Assembly: GCA_019058295.1 (NCBI GenBank)
Contig: JAHPZI010000030.1
Span: 64,001-128,000, forward strand
Origin: Promethearchaeota archaeon
GTDB taxonomy: Archaea > Asgardarchaeota > Lokiarchaeia > Sigyniarchaeales > SOKP01
Direction: 5' to 3'
Length of the DNA stretch: 64,000 bases
How positions within the stretch are numbered: the stretch's first letter is position 1; every line of letters begins with the position of its first letter. This document shows, in pieces, positions 55,977-62,807 of the stretch. The notes below the pieces were generated by a model, which made no database searches, was not told the DNA's origin, and was given only the letters and a program-made list of their open reading frames with translations. Both the position numbers and the translations under genes were made by a program.

Positions 55977-56037
55977 GTTAAATCTATAACTTATTATAAT
56001 TCTTTTAAAATTTTTTATTATTTTTCTTTATTTTTAT

Positions 56038-56173
56038 GCAACGGTTGCCTAGCCTGGTACGGCGCTGGCTTGGAGAGGATAAATAAAAAATTACCAAATA
56101 GCCAGTGTGCTCTGCACTCGGGGGTTCGAAGTTTCTATCCATTTCGCAAGAAACGAAATTCCCTCCCGTTGCG
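56038..56173 (+). tRNA. tRNA-Ser (GGA) with two BHB introns (56076-56099 at 37/38; 56131-56159 in the T-loop at 59/60)
   Basis: acceptor GCAACGG/CCGTTGC+G, anticodon stem CTGGC/GCCAG with GGA at 56072-74, long variable arm GTGC-TCT-GCAC; BHB central helices TTGG/CCAA and TTCG/CGAA with 3-nt bulges; mature length 83 nt. Confidence 0.92.
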
Positions 56174-56235
56174 CTTTCTAATTAACTCTTAAGACAATTT
56201 TAAAAAAAATAAAAATTTTGTATTGACCCAATTGG

Positions 56236-56841
56236 CTAAACATCAGGAAATTGCATAGCAGTAGACTTTTGTCCGCCAAACATTTGTTCCATCCCTCCTG
56301 AAGCTTGTGTTTGCAGTTTAAAAAGTCTTTGGAGCAATGTATTTATCCCTAATGAACAAATGAAATACCAACCTGTAAATATTAATGCCCTACTTTCTAA
56401 AGGATCTTTGCTTCCTGGATTTACCATAGCATTTTGAGTTACAAATCTTAAAAATCCATAAAGATCAGGGCTCATAGGTGTATAAGCAACTGCTGTTCGA
56501 CCATAAACATAAACATTTAGAATGATGAATATTATTATCATAGGTAAAAAGGTAATACAAGTGGGTTTTAATCTCTGCATTGACATACCCTGTTGCGTTT
56601 TCTTAAGCATCTCCTCCCGACGCTCCCATCTTTTACGCTGTTTTCGATATTTCTCAACATCGTTTTCCGCTAATTCAATAATTTTTTTCTTCTCTTCTTG
56701 GTGTGCTTTTATTTGCTTTTGCTTTCTCTGAAGTTCTTCAGTATCAACAAGTAATTTTGTTAAAAGAACACTTACTAAAGCAATAATAAATGATAAAAGC
56801 AATATGAATAACATTGAATCAGGAGGGCTTAATAACGACAT
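56236..56841 (-). CDS. DUF106 / EMC3-TMCO1-like Oxa1-superfamily membrane insertase
   Basis: TM1, coiled coil, QRLKPTCITFLPMIIIF, GWYFICS. Confidence 0.88.
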   Translation of the reverse strand: MSLLSPPDSMLFILLLSFIIALVSVLLTKLLVDTEELQRKQKQIKAHQEEKKKIIELAENDVEKYRKQRKRWERREEMLKKTQQGMSMQRLKPTCITFLPMIIIFIILNVYVYGRTAVAYTPMSPDLYGFLRFVTQNAMVNPGSKDPLESRALIFTGWYFICSLGINTLLQRLFKLQTQASGGMEQMFGGQKSTAMQFPDV

Positions 56842-58503: not shown

Positions 58504-59973
58504 TCAATCTAATCCAAGAAATCCCCGCATGCTTGGATATTGCTGAGCAGCGATCTCCTTTGATATAGTCTCAGCATATTGATGTATGATGCCTATAGCG
58601 ATGAGGAGTCCAGTACCTGAAGTCAATGCACCTAAACTATCTGCCATAAAACTCAATAACGCTATGAGTATCCCATTAAGCACAATAAGAACGGGGATAT
58701 AACGGTCCAATATCTTTTCTATGATTTTCGCTGAACTGCGAAAGCCAGGAACCATCATTCCTGAGTCTAAAATTTGCTGTGCGATGTCACGGCTAGCGAG
58801 ACCGCTTACCTCGACCCAAATCTTCCCAAGATATATACATAGAATTATAAATATGAAAAGATAAATGACCGCCCGTAACGGATCGTCCACTAGTGCATCA
58901 ATCCCTAAAGGTGGTGAAAGATAATATATCAAACCTGATTTCGGTAGGAGATAGCCTCCTGTGCCCGCCCCTGTATCTTGGTATTCAAAAGTACCAAGTA
59001 AATCAAGCCAGAAGTCATTACCTTGACCGCGTAATCCGGACTGTGGTCCTGCTAACAATTGACCAAAAAACAGTAAATTGGCATATAAAGCGTTAACTAA
59101 AATAACTGGAATATTAGAAACATAGAGCAATTTCATTGGATATTTGCCTTTAAAACCTCGATAGCCTCGATACGCTAACGGAATCTCCACACGCGTGCCC
59201 TCAAACCACACAACAACAACAAATATAAACACCGTAGTAATAATTCCTAAAAGAGACGGTAACTGCCCTCGTATCCAGATATCATCTAAATTTGTCGTAG
59301 GATCGTCATCAAACAAAACGTAAAAAAATGCTATAATTATACCTCTTGGTATACGTCCTTCCCCTGGAGCTTCGATAAAACTAAAGGCATTCCAAAAGAT
59401 TTGACCAGCAACGCCTGCTGCGATAAATAAAGAAACACCGCTACCAAGCCCCCATCCTTTTTGAAGTAATTCATCTAGCAAAATAATAATGATCCCAGCA
59501 AATAATAATTGTAAAAAAATCAACACAATGCTTTCTACTCCAAGATCAGTTGGTCTACCAAAATGACCCCCAATAATATATGCTATTATATTAAACATGG
59601 TCAGAAAAATAGCCATAACTTTTTGTGTGCCACTAAACATTGCCCGATCGTATGGATCGTTCATATCAACGTCGATAATCTTAGATCCAAGTAGTAGCTG
59701 CATAATAAGTCCCGCTGTTACTATAGGACCAATTCCTAATTCAGTCAATGTTCCTCTTTTGCTTGCGAGTATTACTCTTAACCAATAAAAATAATCTGTT
59801 GAATTTTCAAGTTGAACACCATATAAAGGAATGTTTGACATTATAAGATATATAACCAAGACCAGGGCGGTCCAGATAAATTTTTCCTTGAATGACACTT
59901 CTCTCTGAGGATTCCTTATTTCTGGCATTACTTTGACGAATGGAGTAAAGAATCTTAAAAATGCTCCTGTCAT
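58504..59973 (-). CDS. secY: preprotein translocase SecY/Sec61alpha
   Basis: FKEKFIWT, GTLTELGIGPIVTAGLIMQLL, LDELLQKGWGLGSGVSLFIA, YPMKLLYVSNIP, SGTGLLI. Confidence 0.98.
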   Translation of the reverse strand: MTGAFLRFFTPFVKVMPEIRNPQREVSFKEKFIWTALVLVIYLIMSNIPLYGVQLENSTDYFYWLRVILASKRGTLTELGIGPIVTAGLIMQLLLGSKIIDVDMNDPYDRAMFSGTQKVMAIFLTMFNIIAYIIGGHFGRPTDLGVESIVLIFLQLLFAGIIIILLDELLQKGWGLGSGVSLFIAAGVAGQIFWNAFSFIEAPGEGRIPRGIIIAFFYVLFDDDPTTNLDDIWIRGQLPSLLGIITTVFIFVVVVWFEGTRVEIPLAYRGYRGFKGKYPMKLLYVSNIPVILVNALYANLLFFGQLLAGPQSGLRGQGNDFWLDLLGTFEYQDTGAGTGGYLLPKSGLIYYLSPPLGIDALVDDPLRAVIYLFIFIILCIYLGKIWVEVSGLASRDIAQQILDSGMMVPGFRSSAKIIEKILDRYIPVLIVLNGILIALLSFMADSLGALTSGTGLLIAIGIIHQYAETISKEIAAQQYPSMRGFLGLD

Positions 59974-60270: not shown

Positions 60271-60570
60271 TTAGAAGAGAGAACCAATTCCAGTTGGCTC
60301 TGCTTCTGTTTCTTCCTCTTCCTTCTTTTTTTCTTTAGGAGCTTCTTTGGCGGCTTCAGCACCCCCACTAACAGATGTAGCCATTACTGGTGTTGCTGTT
60401 GCGGAAGCTATTATCTCATCAATTTTCTTTTGCTTTAAACCTGCAATTATTTTACTAATTTGAGATTTATCGGGTTCTACACCAGCAGCCGTCAGAACTT
60501 TTTCAATAGCCGCCTCTGTTATTTTTTTTGAAGCTGTATGAAGTAAGAGCGCCGCATATATACTTTCCAT
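60271..60570 (-). CDS. rpl12p: ribosomal stalk protein P1 (aL12)
   Basis: MESIYAALLLH, VLTAAGV, Ala/Glu hinge, GIGSLF C-terminus. Confidence 0.95.
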   Translation of the reverse strand: MESIYAALLLHTASKKITEAAIEKVLTAAGVEPDKSQISKIIAGLKQKKIDEIIASATATPVMATSVSGGAEAAKEAPKEKKKEEEETEAEPTGIGSLF

Positions 60571-60643
60571 ACTTCTTTACCTCTTTTTATTTTATTTTTT
60601 TCTATTGTTAGTTTTTTAATTTTAAATTTTTCATCTTAAATTC

Positions 60644-61543
60644 TCATCCAAATAGTCCTCCGATACCTGGAGCACTCTCCTCTTCTTCTTCTTCCTCATC
60701 TGGTTTTTCTTCCTCGGGTTTAACCTCCTCTTTTTTCAATGAAGATGTAATTCCACCTTCAAAAATTATAGTATTGATTATTTTTGCATCAAATACTGCT
60801 TTTTTAATATACTCATCTATCATTTCTTCAAGGAAAATAGGCAATTCAAAAAGAATTCCTAAAGCAGCTAAGTAGCATGATGCAACATCTCGTTGAAACG
60901 ATTCTATATCCATGTACAACGTATCTTCTGGTATTATTTCTCCATCACTCCATGCATAATGGATTTTAATTAACGATTCTATCGGTTTAATCCCAAGCTT
61001 TTTTAAAACTGCCGCCTGTTTAACATCTACAATATCTCCAGCTTTATGCGTTCTGGTCTTCTCGCGAATCCATATAGTATCGTTCTGAATACGGGTAGGT
61101 AATCGTAATGTCATATTTAGCTCCGAAATTACTTGTCCAGTAGGTAATCCTGTATCTCCAGCAGGAACCCAAATGTCTACGGGAGTGATTTCATCAGGTT
61201 TAGCAGGTACCATCCATTCACTCTCGTTGAAAATCTTTTTTAAATCAAATAGATTCATATTTGTAAAAACAAGACTTGATTGTCCAGGGATATTTTTCGC
61301 TAAATTATCAAGATTTGTTTTTTTTGACTGTTTTTTGTACTTTTCGATTGCTCTTATTTGTATACTCTTCTTAGACATTCGAATTTCCACTTTTCCTCTC
61401 AAAATCTTACGTGTATCTTGAATTTGCTTATCGTTAATACTCCCAACATTAATAACCGCAATATTTTTATATTTTTTAAATAAATCTACTAAGTATTCAA
61501 TTTCGTCTAATTTCCACTGTGGAATGTCCTTTTTTGATATCAT
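60644..61543 (-). CDS. rpl10p: 50S ribosomal protein uL10 (P0)
   Basis: IPQWK, PAKP....P.DI.VPAGDTG, L.KLGIKP, acidic hinge and GIGGLFG. Confidence 0.95.
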   Translation of the reverse strand: MISKKDIPQWKLDEIEYLVDLFKKYKNIAVINVGSINDKQIQDTRKILRGKVEIRMSKKSIQIRAIEKYKKQSKKTNLDNLAKNIPGQSSLVFTNMNLFDLKKIFNESEWMVPAKPDEITPVDIWVPAGDTGLPTGQVISELNMTLRLPTRIQNDTIWIREKTRTHKAGDIVDVKQAAVLKKLGIKPIESLIKIHYAWSDGEIIPEDTLYMDIESFQRDVASCYLAALGILFELPIFLEEMIDEYIKKAVFDAKIINTIIFEGGITSSLKKEEVKPEEEKPDEEEEEEESAPGIGGLFG

Positions 61544-61544
61544 T

Positions 61545-62276
61545 TTATTTCACCCCCAATGTCTCTAGATATTCATTATCTATCTTGATCGGTCGTCCCA
61601 TTGTAGTCTTAATAAACATCGATCTAAAGTTGTTATATTTATGAGGCATTTGATCTGCAACATAATCGACAATAGCTTTCATGTTTTCCAGAATTTTATC
61701 CATTTCCATTGATTTTTTGCCAATTTTTACCTGTAAAACTGGATTTTTTTTGACTATAATCCTAACAATTTTTTTGTATCTCTCAACAGCTACACTAAGA
61801 TCATCTATTGATGAAATAATTCCATATCCCGATGGAAAAGGTTTAGGCATTTTTCCAGAAGGCCCTAAAAATCTAGCCAAAAAACGAGCAACGTCGCGCA
61901 TATTCTTGTCTTCCACAACAAAAAAATCGTATTTTTTCACGAATTTTTTTTTGTCTTTCTTTTCTTCCCGATCCAAAGCTGCCAAACCATCTGGGTCAAG
62001 AGTATCCAATCCTATTTTTTTAGATTCTACTAATATCTCATCAGAAGCAATCACACATATGTTAGGTTTATCCTCTGTTATTACCTCGTTAGGCAATATT
62101 AATTCCTTGTCAATTCTCTGTTTTGGATCACTTAAATTAATATCCTTTAAGTTTATTATGAAATCAATAGTTTCGTCAAATTTGCGAATTTTATCTTTAA
62201 ATCCTTCTTTCTTTATAATCGAAAAGTCAATAGCAGCATTTAATGATTTTTTTAATAATTTATCATCAACTTTCAT
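61545..62276 (-). CDS. rpl1p: 50S ribosomal protein uL1
   Basis: RKFDETIDFIINLKD, LGPSGKMPKP, IKTTMG.P. Confidence 0.96.
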   Translation of the reverse strand: MKVDDKLLKKSLNAAIDFSIIKKEGFKDKIRKFDETIDFIINLKDINLSDPKQRIDKELILPNEVITEDKPNICVIASDEILVESKKIGLDTLDPDGLAALDREEKKDKKKFVKKYDFFVVEDKNMRDVARFLARFLGPSGKMPKPFPSGYGIISSIDDLSVAVERYKKIVRIIVKKNPVLQVKIGKKSMEMDKILENMKAIVDYVADQMPHKYNNFRSMFIKTTMGRPIKIDNEYLETLGVK

Positions 62277-62279
62277 TTT

Positions 62280-62807
62280 TTACGATTCCTCCTTTATTTT
62301 ATCATCATATTCTCCATTGTCTATTCTCTCTTGAATGATTCTAGGATCCACACCCTCTACAGTTAGTCCTACGGATAAGGCTGTTCCTATTACTGTTTTA
62401 ACACAAGTTTTAAATGTCTTATCTAAAAAAATGTCTTTTTTAGCATTAGCTATTGAAATTATTTGGTCGAGTGTTAAATTGCCAATCTTGTCCTCCCCTG
62501 GATTTGAAGCCCCTTTCTCAACACCAACTTCTTTTAGCAATAATGATGCTGTCGAAGGAGTTTCTACAAATATTTCAAATTGCTTTGTTTCAGGATTGCA
62601 TTCAATCCTCACTGGAACAGTTAATCCTTTAAACATCATAGTTTGTTCATTTACAGCATCAACAACATCTTTGATATTAATCCCCGTAGGACCTTTGACT
62701 AAGTAATTCGAGTTGATTTACTTTACAACCGGTCCTATGGGAGGTCCCCCGCTTGCCGCTCCACCTTTCACCAGCGCTTGTACTACCACTATACCTTTTT
62801 CGCTCAT
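62280..62807 (-). CDS. rpl11p: 50S ribosomal protein uL11, split by a 30-nt intron (exons 62807-62725 and 62694-62280; 165 aa after splicing)
   Basis: MSEKGIVVVQALVKGGAASGGPPIGPV[V K*INSNYLVK]GPTGINIKDVVDAVNEQT...FKGLTVPV...PSTASLL...GTALSVG; the ORF track shows only the 3' 119 aa. Confidence 0.92.
62695..62724 (-). other. candidate BHB-type mRNA intron in uL11 (AAAGTAAATCAACTCGAATTACTTAGTCAA)
   Basis: outer helix UAGGACC/GGUCCUA, central helix GGUU/AGUC, bulges GUA and AAA, inner helix AAGUAA/UUACUU; contains an in-frame TAA at 62720-62718. Confidence 0.85.

What the first reader, a model, noticed from the sequence alone, without database searches (positions are those of the whole stretch)
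62695..62724. Bulge-helix-bulge intron inside the uL11 protein-coding gene (candidate EndA/RtcB-spliced mRNA)
Seen in sequence: on the minus strand uL11 reads ...GGA CCG GTT GTA AAG TAA ATC AAC TCG AAT TAC TTA GTC AAA GGT CCT..., so 12 codons including a TAA sit where the conserved GPPxGPxxGP motif has 2. The region folds into a strict BHB: exonic outer helix CCC-A-UAGGACC/GGUCCUA-C-GGG, 4-bp central helix GGUU/AGUC (G-C, G-U, U-G, U-A), two 3-nt bulges (GUA, AAA) and intronic helix AAGUAA/UUACUU. Established: archaeal tRNA splicing endonuclease cuts each bulge after its second nucleotide. Applying that rule removes exactly 30 nt and gives GPPIGP-VV-GPTGINI, in frame and at canonical spacing (165 aa). 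Unspliced mRNA would give a 29-aa peptide. The well-known archaeal mRNA BHB intron is crenarchaeal cbf5, and I know of none in a ribosomal protein gene or an Asgard mRNA. Inference: this lineage splices mRNA with tRNA machinery, possibly coupling the uL11-uL1-uL10-P1 operon to EndA/RtcB activity. Gene callers would truncate uL11.
Basis: partly seen in the sequence, partly recalled or inferred. Interest (0 to 1): 0.96.

Follow-up and report, generated by a model that had tools for sequence, protein, structure and literature searches.

The report
tRNA-type intron splits Asgard uL11 gene
The only gene for ribosomal protein uL11 in this Asgard (Lokiarchaeia-type) archaeon is broken by a 30-base insert shaped exactly like a tRNA intron, so its mRNA almost certainly has to be cut and rejoined by the tRNA-splicing enzymes. 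Published work documents this inside an archaeal coding sequence for one gene only (cbf5).

Summary
On the minus strand, 30 nt (62695-62724) carrying an in-frame TAA interrupt the single-copy uL11 gene. They fold as a canonical helix-bulge-helix-bulge-helix (BHB) motif. Cutting after the second nucleotide of each 3-nt bulge gives a 165-aa uL11 with the consensus GPPIGPVVGPTGINIK.

Comparative evidence is strong:
- Four congeners carry a homologous intron at the same site. RNAalifold predicts the BHB on its own, with compensatory changes.
- Across the family I found 37 short inserts (28-38 nt, mostly not 3n) at four sites within 55 nt of uL11. The same cutting rule restores the consensus protein in every case.
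- Synonymous sites that form the exon-exon helix pair only where the intron is present.
- The genome encodes a two-subunit splicing endonuclease of the crenarchaeal broad-specificity type.
- RtcB was not found in this 79%-complete MAG, but 7 of 8 congeners have it.

No RNA data could be obtained, so splicing itself is inferred. The patchy distribution argues against a conserved regulatory role.

Searchable papers report only cbf5 (coding sequence) and one Haloferax 5' UTR. This scan has noted similar introns in other Asgard genomes, including uL11 of another Lokiarchaeia-type genome.

The parts
62725..62807 (-). uL11 exon 1: ATG plus 27 codons plus the first 2 nt (GT) of the junction codon. 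It encodes MSEKGIVVVQALVKGGAASGGPPIGPV(V).
   Evidence: Compared with G007, the differences are 5 synonymous changes and 1 change that is compensated in the helix.
62695..62724 (-). 30-nt BHB intron. It holds the third nucleotide of the 5' bulge, the inner hairpin AAGUAA-loop-UUACUU, the 3' strand of the central helix (AGUC) and the first two nucleotides of the 3' bulge. An in-frame TAA lies at 62718-62720.
62280..62694 (-). uL11 exon 2: the last nucleotide of the junction codon, then GPTGINIKD... to the stop codon.
   Evidence: Pfam Ribosomal_L11_N profile positions 21-58 and Ribosomal_L11. The first 20 profile positions lie in exon 1.
62683..62741 (-). Whole hBHBh' fold: exon-exon helix (3 + 7 bp, built from the codons of the two Gly-Pro pairs, GGACC/GGUCC), 4-bp central helix, two 3-nt bulges and the intron hairpin.
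   Evidence: The RNAalifold consensus of 5 homologues is identical to the proposed structure. 96.5% of cells are paired, against 16-54% when the partners are slid.
60271..62276 (-). Downstream genes of the same operon: uL1 (61545-62276), uL10/P0 (60644-61543) and P1 (60271-60570).
   Evidence: Pfam. The gaps between genes are 1-73 nt.

Best explanation
This is a genuine archaeal bulge-helix-bulge intron inside the coding sequence of the single uL11 gene of a Promethearchaeota (Lokiarchaeia-type Asgard) archaeon.

Shown here:
- The pre-mRNA can fold so that the codons of the two Gly-Pro pairs of the GPPIGPxVGP motif (GGACC / GGUCC) form an exon-exon helix.
- Four exon nucleotides (GGUU) pair with the 3' end of the insert (AGUC).
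- A 6-bp hairpin closes the insert. This leaves two 3-nt bulges on opposite strands, 4 bp apart.

Inferred from the established mechanism of archaeal splicing endonucleases:
- The genome's heterotetramer-type (alpha-beta)2 EndA cuts after the second nucleotide of each bulge.
- RtcB joins the 2',3'-cyclic-phosphate and 5'-OH ends and probably circularises the 30-nt intron.

Shown in silico: the ligated mRNA encodes a normal 165-aa uL11, whereas unspliced mRNA can only give a 29-aa peptide.

The intron is one of a dynamic set. The same gene in related genomes carries homologous mini-introns at four positions, gained or lost many times. I therefore read it as a tolerated, possibly mobile, element rather than a regulator.
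For: 1. Geometry. The fold is a canonical hBHBh' at 62683-62741.

2. Independent consensus fold. The five genomes with an intron at this site give exactly this structure. Compensatory changes occur in the outer helix (A-U to U-A) and the central helix (G-C to A-U). In my own register-anchored count, which does not depend on the MAFFT gaps, they also occur in the inner helix. 96.5% of cells are paired, against 16-54% for slid partners.

3. One rule restores every gene. Cutting after bulge nucleotide 2 restores ALVTGGxASGGPPIGPxVGPTGINIKD in all 28 distinct intron-bearing uL11 genes. That covers 37 introns at 4 sites, 28-38 nt long and mostly not multiples of 3.

4. Selection on the exon-exon helix. 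The synonymous third positions that form this helix are both complementary in 5/5 genes with this intron, but in only 3/58 genes without it.

5. Copy number. There is a single uL11 match in this genome and in each congener, including genomes that are 98-99% complete.

6. Exon 1 is conserved at the protein level.

7. Endonuclease. The genome has two EndA paralogues with both Pfam domains. The stronger one is closest to the catalytic subunits of the Aeropyrum, Sulfolobus and Pyrobaculum heterotetramers (3p1z_B, 2cv8, 2zyz_B). It keeps the KPR loop segment that aligns with the crenarchaeal-specific loop. Asgard EndAs were described as (alpha-beta)2 with that L1 loop (PMC5829648).

8. Other substrates in the same genome. 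Introns of the same size and shape occur in tRNAs (10 tRNA introns by ARAGORN; more appear after in-silico splicing) and in Sec61beta.

9. Literature. PMC2738675 states the cleavage rule (between the 2nd and 3rd bulge residues) and the cbf5 intron size range of 16-44 bp.

10. Assembly. An independent assembly of run SRR14802572 has the identical insert.
Against: - There is no transcript, cDNA or proteomic evidence, so splicing is inferred.
- RtcB was not found in this assembly. The assembly is 79% complete, and 7 of 8 congeners have RtcB.
- For this sequence alone, the thermodynamic model prefers another 3-bp register for the middle helix. The BHB central helix has two G-U pairs and an ensemble probability of about 0.001.
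- The introns at sites 47, 71 and 100 in relatives have relaxed rather than canonical motifs: short or mismatched outer helices at 47 and 100, and an offset inner hairpin at 71.
- A motif-first scan of this AT-rich genome shows no excess of frame-restoring BHBs over shifted controls. The motif alone is therefore weak evidence without the comparative data.
Confidence: 0.9

Rival explanations
1. Programmed translational bypass (ribosome hopping, as in phage T4 gene 60). The ribosome would take off just before the UAA, slide over the hairpin and resume at GGU.
For: A stop codon directly follows a possible take-off codon (AAG UAA), both lie within a hairpin, and a near-cognate AAA lies just before exon 2.
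Against: - An AAG-to-AAA hop would add a Lys and give three residues between the GP pairs, where all 63 family sequences have two.
- The 28-nt homologues in G006 and G002 have no matching take-off and landing codons, and their exons lie in different frames.
- Bypass explains neither the 4-bp helix with two 3-nt bulges kept by compensatory changes, nor why one geometric cutting rule restores all 37 inserts.
Confidence: 0.02
2. Pseudogene. uL11 would be inactivated by insertion of a small repeat element, with the working copy lying in the unassembled fifth of the genome.
For: The assembly is only 79% complete. The insert carries a stop codon.
Against: - Congeners that are 98-99% complete (G006, G007) have the same interrupted gene as their only uL11 match.
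- Both exons stay under protein-level constraint, and the exon synonymous sites co-vary with the insert.
- The gene sits in its normal operon.
- No terminal inverted repeats or target duplication are seen at the insert ends.
Confidence: 0.03
3. Assembly or sequencing artefact: a chimeric or duplicated segment introduced into the contig.
For: It is a MAG, and read mapping could not be done here.
Against: - The identical insert appears in an independent Logan assembly of SRR14802572. A variant allele appears in another run (SRR7615342) and in the MAG AMARA_1S.
- Homologous inserts occur in MAGs from several unrelated studies.
Confidence: 0.01
4. The insert is removed from the RNA by a route other than EndA and RtcB, for example another structure-specific nuclease and ligase, or self-cleavage.
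For: RtcB was not found in this assembly. The inserts at the other three sites have relaxed motifs.
Against: - 28-38 nt is far too short for a group I or II ribozyme, and Rfam finds nothing in the window.
- The geometry is the specific recognition motif of EndA, and the required cut sites coincide with EndA's known cut sites in all 37 cases (PMC2738675).
- Congeners encode RtcB.
Confidence: 0.04

Closest known systems
cbf5 (pseudouridine synthase) pre-mRNA intron of Crenarchaeota (Desulfurococcales, Sulfolobales; Watanabe 2002, Yoshinari 2006, Yokobori 2009 = PMC2738675)
   Same: - A short (16-44 bp) BHB-type intron inside a protein-coding sequence.
- Cut sites between the 2nd and 3rd bulge residues.
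- Association with a heterotetrameric, broad-specificity EndA.
- Patchy presence and absence among relatives, read as gain and loss.
   Different: - A different gene (a ribosomal protein) and a different lineage (Asgard / Lokiarchaeia-type).
- The motif here is canonical, whereas most cbf5 introns are relaxed.
- The same gene carries introns at four sites within 55 nt in relatives, up to two per gene, leaving micro-exons of 24-36 nt.
- cbf5 splicing is shown by cDNA and in vitro cleavage. This one is inferred.
BHB intron in the 5' UTR of Haloferax volcanii HVO_1309 (Schwarz et al. 2020, PMC7714728)
   Same: An EndA substrate in an mRNA. The excised intron is circular.
   Different: It lies in the untranslated leader, so it does not interrupt the reading frame. 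The host is a euryarchaeon with a homodimeric EndA. It was shown experimentally.
Archaeal tRNA introns at canonical and non-canonical positions, which are very frequent in some Asgard lineages (PMC11291895; bioRxiv 10.64898/2026.10.13.758758)
   Same: The same motif, the same size range (19-54 nt in this genome's tRNAs) and presumably the same enzymes. The window itself holds a tRNA with a 29-nt BHB intron in its T-loop.
   Different: The host RNA here is a translated message. Splicing must therefore restore a reading frame and must compete with ribosomes.
Unconventional cytoplasmic splicing of HAC1/XBP1 mRNA in eukaryotes (Ire1 plus tRNA ligase/RtcB)
   Same: Protein-enzyme (non-spliceosomal) excision of a short intron from an mRNA at stem-loop sites, with sealing by the tRNA ligase.
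   Different: The nuclease is Ire1, not the tRNA splicing endonuclease, and the event is a regulated stress switch. There is no sign of regulation here. This comparison rests on general knowledge and was not tested here.

Membership tests
Archaeal BHB (splicing-endonuclease) intron | Two 3-nt bulges on opposite strands, separated by a 4-bp helix | tested here: met
   GGUU/AGUC with bulges GUA and AAA. The central helix is paired in 20/20 cells across 5 homologues, and the consensus fold gives it independently.
Archaeal BHB (splicing-endonuclease) intron | Flanking helices on both sides (h and h') | tested here: met
   A 7 + 3 bp exon-exon helix and a 6-9 bp intron hairpin, each with compensatory changes (the MAFFT-based counts show them in the outer and central helices only).
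Archaeal BHB (splicing-endonuclease) intron | Cutting between bulge nucleotides 2 and 3 yields a functional mature RNA | tested here: met
   It removes exactly 30 nt and restores the frame and the consensus motif. The same rule works for all 37 uL11 introns examined. The rule is as stated in PMC2738675.
Archaeal BHB (splicing-endonuclease) intron | The host encodes a splicing endonuclease able to act outside the tRNA context ((alpha-beta)2 type with the Crenarchaea-specific/L1 loop) | tested here: met
   Two EndA paralogues are present. The stronger one is closest to crenarchaeal heterotetramer catalytic subunits, with the loop segment aligned.
Archaeal BHB (splicing-endonuclease) intron | The host encodes the RtcB ligase | tested here: inconclusive
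   RtcB was not found in this 79%-complete assembly. It was found in 7 of 8 congeners and in all 5 high-quality genomes searched.
Archaeal BHB (splicing-endonuclease) intron | Spliced RNA and an excised (circular) intron observed | not testable with these tools
   No exact spliced junction was found in metagenome contigs. The nearest full-length database proteins come from intron-less relatives, not from transcripts.
Programmed translational bypass (T4 gene 60 type) | Matching take-off and landing codons that give the conserved protein | tested here: not met
   Only AAG/AAA is available here, and it would add a residue. The 28-nt homologues have no match.
Self-splicing group I / group II intron | A ribozyme core of hundreds of nucleotides | tested here: not met
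   The insert is 30 nt, and Rfam finds no match in the window.
Intein | An in-frame, stop-free insert that encodes a splicing domain | tested here: not met
   The insert has 10 codons with a TAA, and the homologues are 28-38 nt and mostly not 3n.

The most novel reading that the evidence does not exclude
These mini-introns would be a mobile, turning-over population that colonises translated genes in this Asgard family, not just an isolated curiosity.

Observations pointing that way:
- Four sites in uL11 alone.
- At least 27 changes of state across 68 genomes.
- Near-identical intron cores in different genes. The 5' half of the uS11 insert of this genome matches the uL11 intron of congeners.
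- Introns in Sec61beta, and even in rtcB itself.

If so, the closest prokaryotic relatives of eukaryotes would routinely depend on protein-catalysed mRNA splicing, with intron gain, possibly by reverse splicing or recombination at GC-rich Gly-Pro codon palindromes.
Probability: 0.35. Interest if true: 0.92.

Novelty: new member of a known kind. Interest (0 to 1): 0.86.

Why it matters
Introns inside archaeal protein-coding sequences are treated in the literature as a single oddity, cbf5 in some Crenarchaeota (PMC7714728 says so explicitly). Here an essential, single-copy ribosomal-protein gene of an Asgard archaeon cannot be expressed without splicing, and its relatives show the same gene being invaded or cleared at four sites.

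- Annotation. uL11 is called as truncated 119-146-aa fragments, or missed as a marker, in public Lokiarchaeial genomes.
- Mechanism. It raises the question of how splicing is coordinated with coupled transcription and translation, given that all four sites lie within the first 35 codons.
- Origin of introns. A lineage close to the eukaryotic ancestor tolerates, and apparently spreads, introns in mRNAs using only the tRNA-splicing enzymes.
- Testability. This can be checked directly with RT-PCR on enrichment cultures or with recombinant EndA.

Tried and rejected
- **Motif-first genome scans.** I scanned for BHBs whose removal fuses open frames. There was no excess over frame-shifted controls (315 vs 307/295; 165 vs 170/175). 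Fusions of neighbouring genes and AT-rich pseudo-helices dominate. Only energy ranking was useful: the top hits are tRNA introns, Sec61beta and uL11.
- **Search for the spliced junction.** A search in metagenome contigs for the junction of this species or its G007 allele found nothing.
- **Search for a spliced product.** The protein search over 5.8 billion proteins gave, as its best full-length hits (P0001-P0004, 91-96% identical), sequences that differ at the N-terminus. P0001 lies on a genomic operon contig. These are intron-less relatives, not transcripts.
- **Fuzzy search for further intron copies.** A search of the genome for more copies of the intron core found only the uS11 insert above noise.
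- **Single-sequence folding.** It does not recover the BHB for the own sequence. It gives a near-BHB, slipped by one nucleotide at the 5' bulge, for 2 of the 5 homologues.
- **Rfam.** Rfam finds nothing in the window at gathering thresholds, and only chance-level hits at permissive thresholds around 56 kb.
- **Readings rejected.** I considered and rejected intein, group I/II intron, MITE-type pseudogene and ribosomal bypass (see the membership tests).
- **Not done.** I did not check Pfam on in-silico spliced products of other candidate genes, because those sequences have no reference and would have had to be typed.

Full report
**What is in the sequence**

On the minus strand of the window, an operon reads uL11, uL1, uL10/P0, P1 (Pfam), followed by SecY. 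uL11 starts at ATG 62807-62805. After 27 codons it reads GGA CCG GTT GTA AAG TAA ATC AAC TCG AAT TAC TTA GTC AAA GGT CCT. That gives a 29-aa open frame, and in the same frame a 137-aa remainder. The remainder matches Ribosomal_L11_N from profile position 21 onwards, plus the whole C-terminal domain.

Removing 62724-62695 (30 nt) joins GT|A. The result is a 165-aa protein with GPPIGPVVGPTGINIK, collinear with intron-less relatives.

**Whose genome**

The closest named records are Promethearchaeota (Lokiarchaeia-type Asgard) MAGs, the nearest being AMARA_1S at 96% identity. The genome held is 3.2 Mb in 30 contigs, 31% G+C, 79% complete and 3.6% contaminated. It holds one uL11 match only.

**Structure**

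The insert and its flanks can form four elements:
- an exon-exon helix (CCC.UAGGACC / GGUCCUA.GGG)
- a 4-bp helix between exon GGUU and the intron's 3' AGUC
- two 3-nt bulges (GUA, AAA) on opposite strands
- a 6-bp intron hairpin

This is the topology of the archaeal helix-bulge-helix-bulge-helix motif.

For this one sequence, the energy model keeps the outer and inner helices but prefers another 3-bp register in the middle. That is a caveat. It is answered by comparison with homologues. Four congeners (G007, G004, G006, G002) carry a homologous 28-30-nt insert at the same place. RNAalifold on the five sequences returns exactly the BHB. On that structure:
- 96.5% of cells are standard pairs, against 16-54% when the partners are slid by 1-3 columns.
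- Three pairs change on both sides, namely outer A-U/U-A, central G-C/A-U, and a third outer pair.
- My register-anchored count adds compensatory pairs in the inner hairpin.

The alternative register of the single-sequence fold is not conserved: G007 has C where pairing would need U.

**The wider pattern**

I examined 86 loci from relatives. They gave 63 distinct family-level uL11 5' regions, and 28 distinct genes among them are interrupted. There are 37 inserts of 28-38 nt at four positions within 55 nt:
- after codon 16 (GG|SA)
- after PPI
- after GPxV (this finding)
- after GIN

Most lengths are not multiples of three, so read-through cannot rescue these genes. At every site a 4-bp helix is flanked by two 3-nt bulges. 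Cutting after bulge nucleotide 2 restores ALVTGGxASGGPPIGPxVGPTGINIKD in all 28 genes.

Sites 47, 71 and 100 have relaxed motifs: short or interrupted outer helices at 47 and 100, and an offset hairpin at 71. Most cbf5 introns are also described as relaxed (PMC2738675).

**Selection on the exon helix**

The exon-exon helix of the present intron is built from the codons of two Gly-Pro pairs. Only two of its pairs involve free (synonymous third) positions. Both are complementary in 5/5 genes with the intron, using A-U in three and U-A in two. They are both complementary in only 3/58 genes without it. The analogous pair at site 71 is complementary in 5/5 genes, with four pair types, against 27/58. 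This shows selection on the RNA structure that depends on the presence of the intron.

**Enzymes**

The genome encodes two 201-aa EndA paralogues, each with both endonuclease domains. The stronger one is most similar to the catalytic subunits of crenarchaeal heterotetramers (3p1z_B, 3ajv_B, 2cv8, 2zyz_B). It aligns through the loop segment (GxPLxxxKPR) that corresponds to the Crenarchaea-specific loop. Asgard EndAs were described as (alpha-beta)2 with that L1 loop, the type that cuts relaxed motifs and the cbf5 pre-mRNA (PMC5829648; PMC2738675).

RtcB was not found in this incomplete assembly but is present in 7 of 8 congeners. The same genome has tRNA introns of 19-54 nt. My strict BHB scan recovers several of them, including tRNAs that ARAGORN sees only after in-silico splicing.

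**Distribution**

On a tree of uL11 C-terminus plus uL1 (68 rows, quick IQ-TREE), the four sites need at least 9, 5, 3 and 10 changes of state. A few rows are truncated or mis-scored: L003, L007, L040 and L063. Intron-less genes occur within 4% protein divergence of this one (P0001, on a genomic operon contig). None of 15 genomes from the three other families of the order has an interrupted uL11. This patchiness speaks against a conserved regulatory role and for rapid gain and loss.

**Artefact and pseudogene**

The identical sequence is present in an independent Logan assembly of SRR14802572, where the gene caller emits a 29-aa and a 119-aa ORF. The G007-type allele is present in SRR7615342. 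Congeners that are 98-99% complete have the interrupted gene as their only uL11. Public databases hold many truncated 'L11' products of 119-146 aa from this family.

**Other rivals**

Ribosomal bypass would need matching take-off and landing codons. Only AAG/AAA exists here, it would add a residue, and the 28-nt homologues offer nothing. Group I/II introns and inteins are excluded by size and by the stop codon, and Rfam finds nothing.

**Literature**

Full-text searches found coding-sequence BHB introns only for crenarchaeal cbf5, plus one 5'-UTR intron in Haloferax. PMC7714728 states that cbf5 was the only other mRNA example. Papers on Asgard introns deal with tRNA genes. Subscription-only papers are not covered by this library.

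**Earlier notes of this scan**

Earlier notes of this scan report similar introns in other Asgard genomes, including uL11 of another Lokiarchaeia-type genome, and list further candidates in this genome. Of those, I confirmed Sec61beta (a strict 32-nt BHB) and saw the uS11 insert. I did not test the others.

**Verdict**

The finding is a new member of the known kind 'BHB intron in an archaeal pre-mRNA', with unusually rich comparative support and no direct RNA evidence.

Noticed in passing
L091:309-337 (G006:C13) and L092:290-318 (G002:C3): In two congeners the rtcB gene itself carries a 29-nt BHB intron: 4-bp helix TTGG/CCAA, bulges ATA and AAA, and a 9-bp hairpin. It lies inside the active-site motif GGVGY|DINCG, and in-silico splicing restores that motif. 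The ligase mRNA would therefore need the ligase for its own maturation.
   Followed up: yes
window 56027-56178 (+): A tRNA gene with two introns. One is a strict 29-nt BHB in the T-loop (GGGGG TTCG aa|g ... CGAA at|t CCCTC, about 56130-56158). ARAGORN and Rfam call no tRNA in the raw window. ARAGORN calls one, with a second 24-nt intron, after the T-loop intron is removed in silico.
   Followed up: partly
own genome C30:56079-56110 (-), about 7.9 kb before the window: The Sec61beta gene is interrupted by a 32-nt canonical BHB intron with a 9-bp exon-exon helix. The spliced product reads ...PMPLGGAGLMRFFED... followed by one TM helix.
   Followed up: yes
own genome C1, minus strand, about 158.7-159.1 kb: The uS11 gene reads SSPYAA[IK*FISNSLLK]QCGFR, a 30-nt insert with relaxed geometry. 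Its 5' half (AAAGTAATTCATTTCGAAT) is almost identical to the uL11 intron of congeners G004 and G006. This hints that the mini-introns form a sequence family that moves between genes.
   Followed up: partly
own genome C22:30303-33335: An array of 27 intron-less tRNA genes within 3 kb, whereas 9 of the 16 tRNAs that ARAGORN finds elsewhere in the genome have introns. It may be a mobile or viral tRNA array, or a functional back-up set.
   Followed up: no
uL11 codons 16-34 in relatives (loci L003-L086): All four intron sites lie in the G+C-rich Gly/Pro motif near the 5' end of the gene, in a 31% G+C genome. GGNCC codon pairs supply the exon helices. Many of the intron hairpin loops contain TTCGA(A/T) or ATCGA, which resembles a tRNA T-loop.
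   Followed up: partly
window 58504-59973 (-) and 56236-56841 (-): SecY and a 201-aa membrane protein follow the stalk operon directly, rather than lying in the usual spc-operon context.
   Followed up: no
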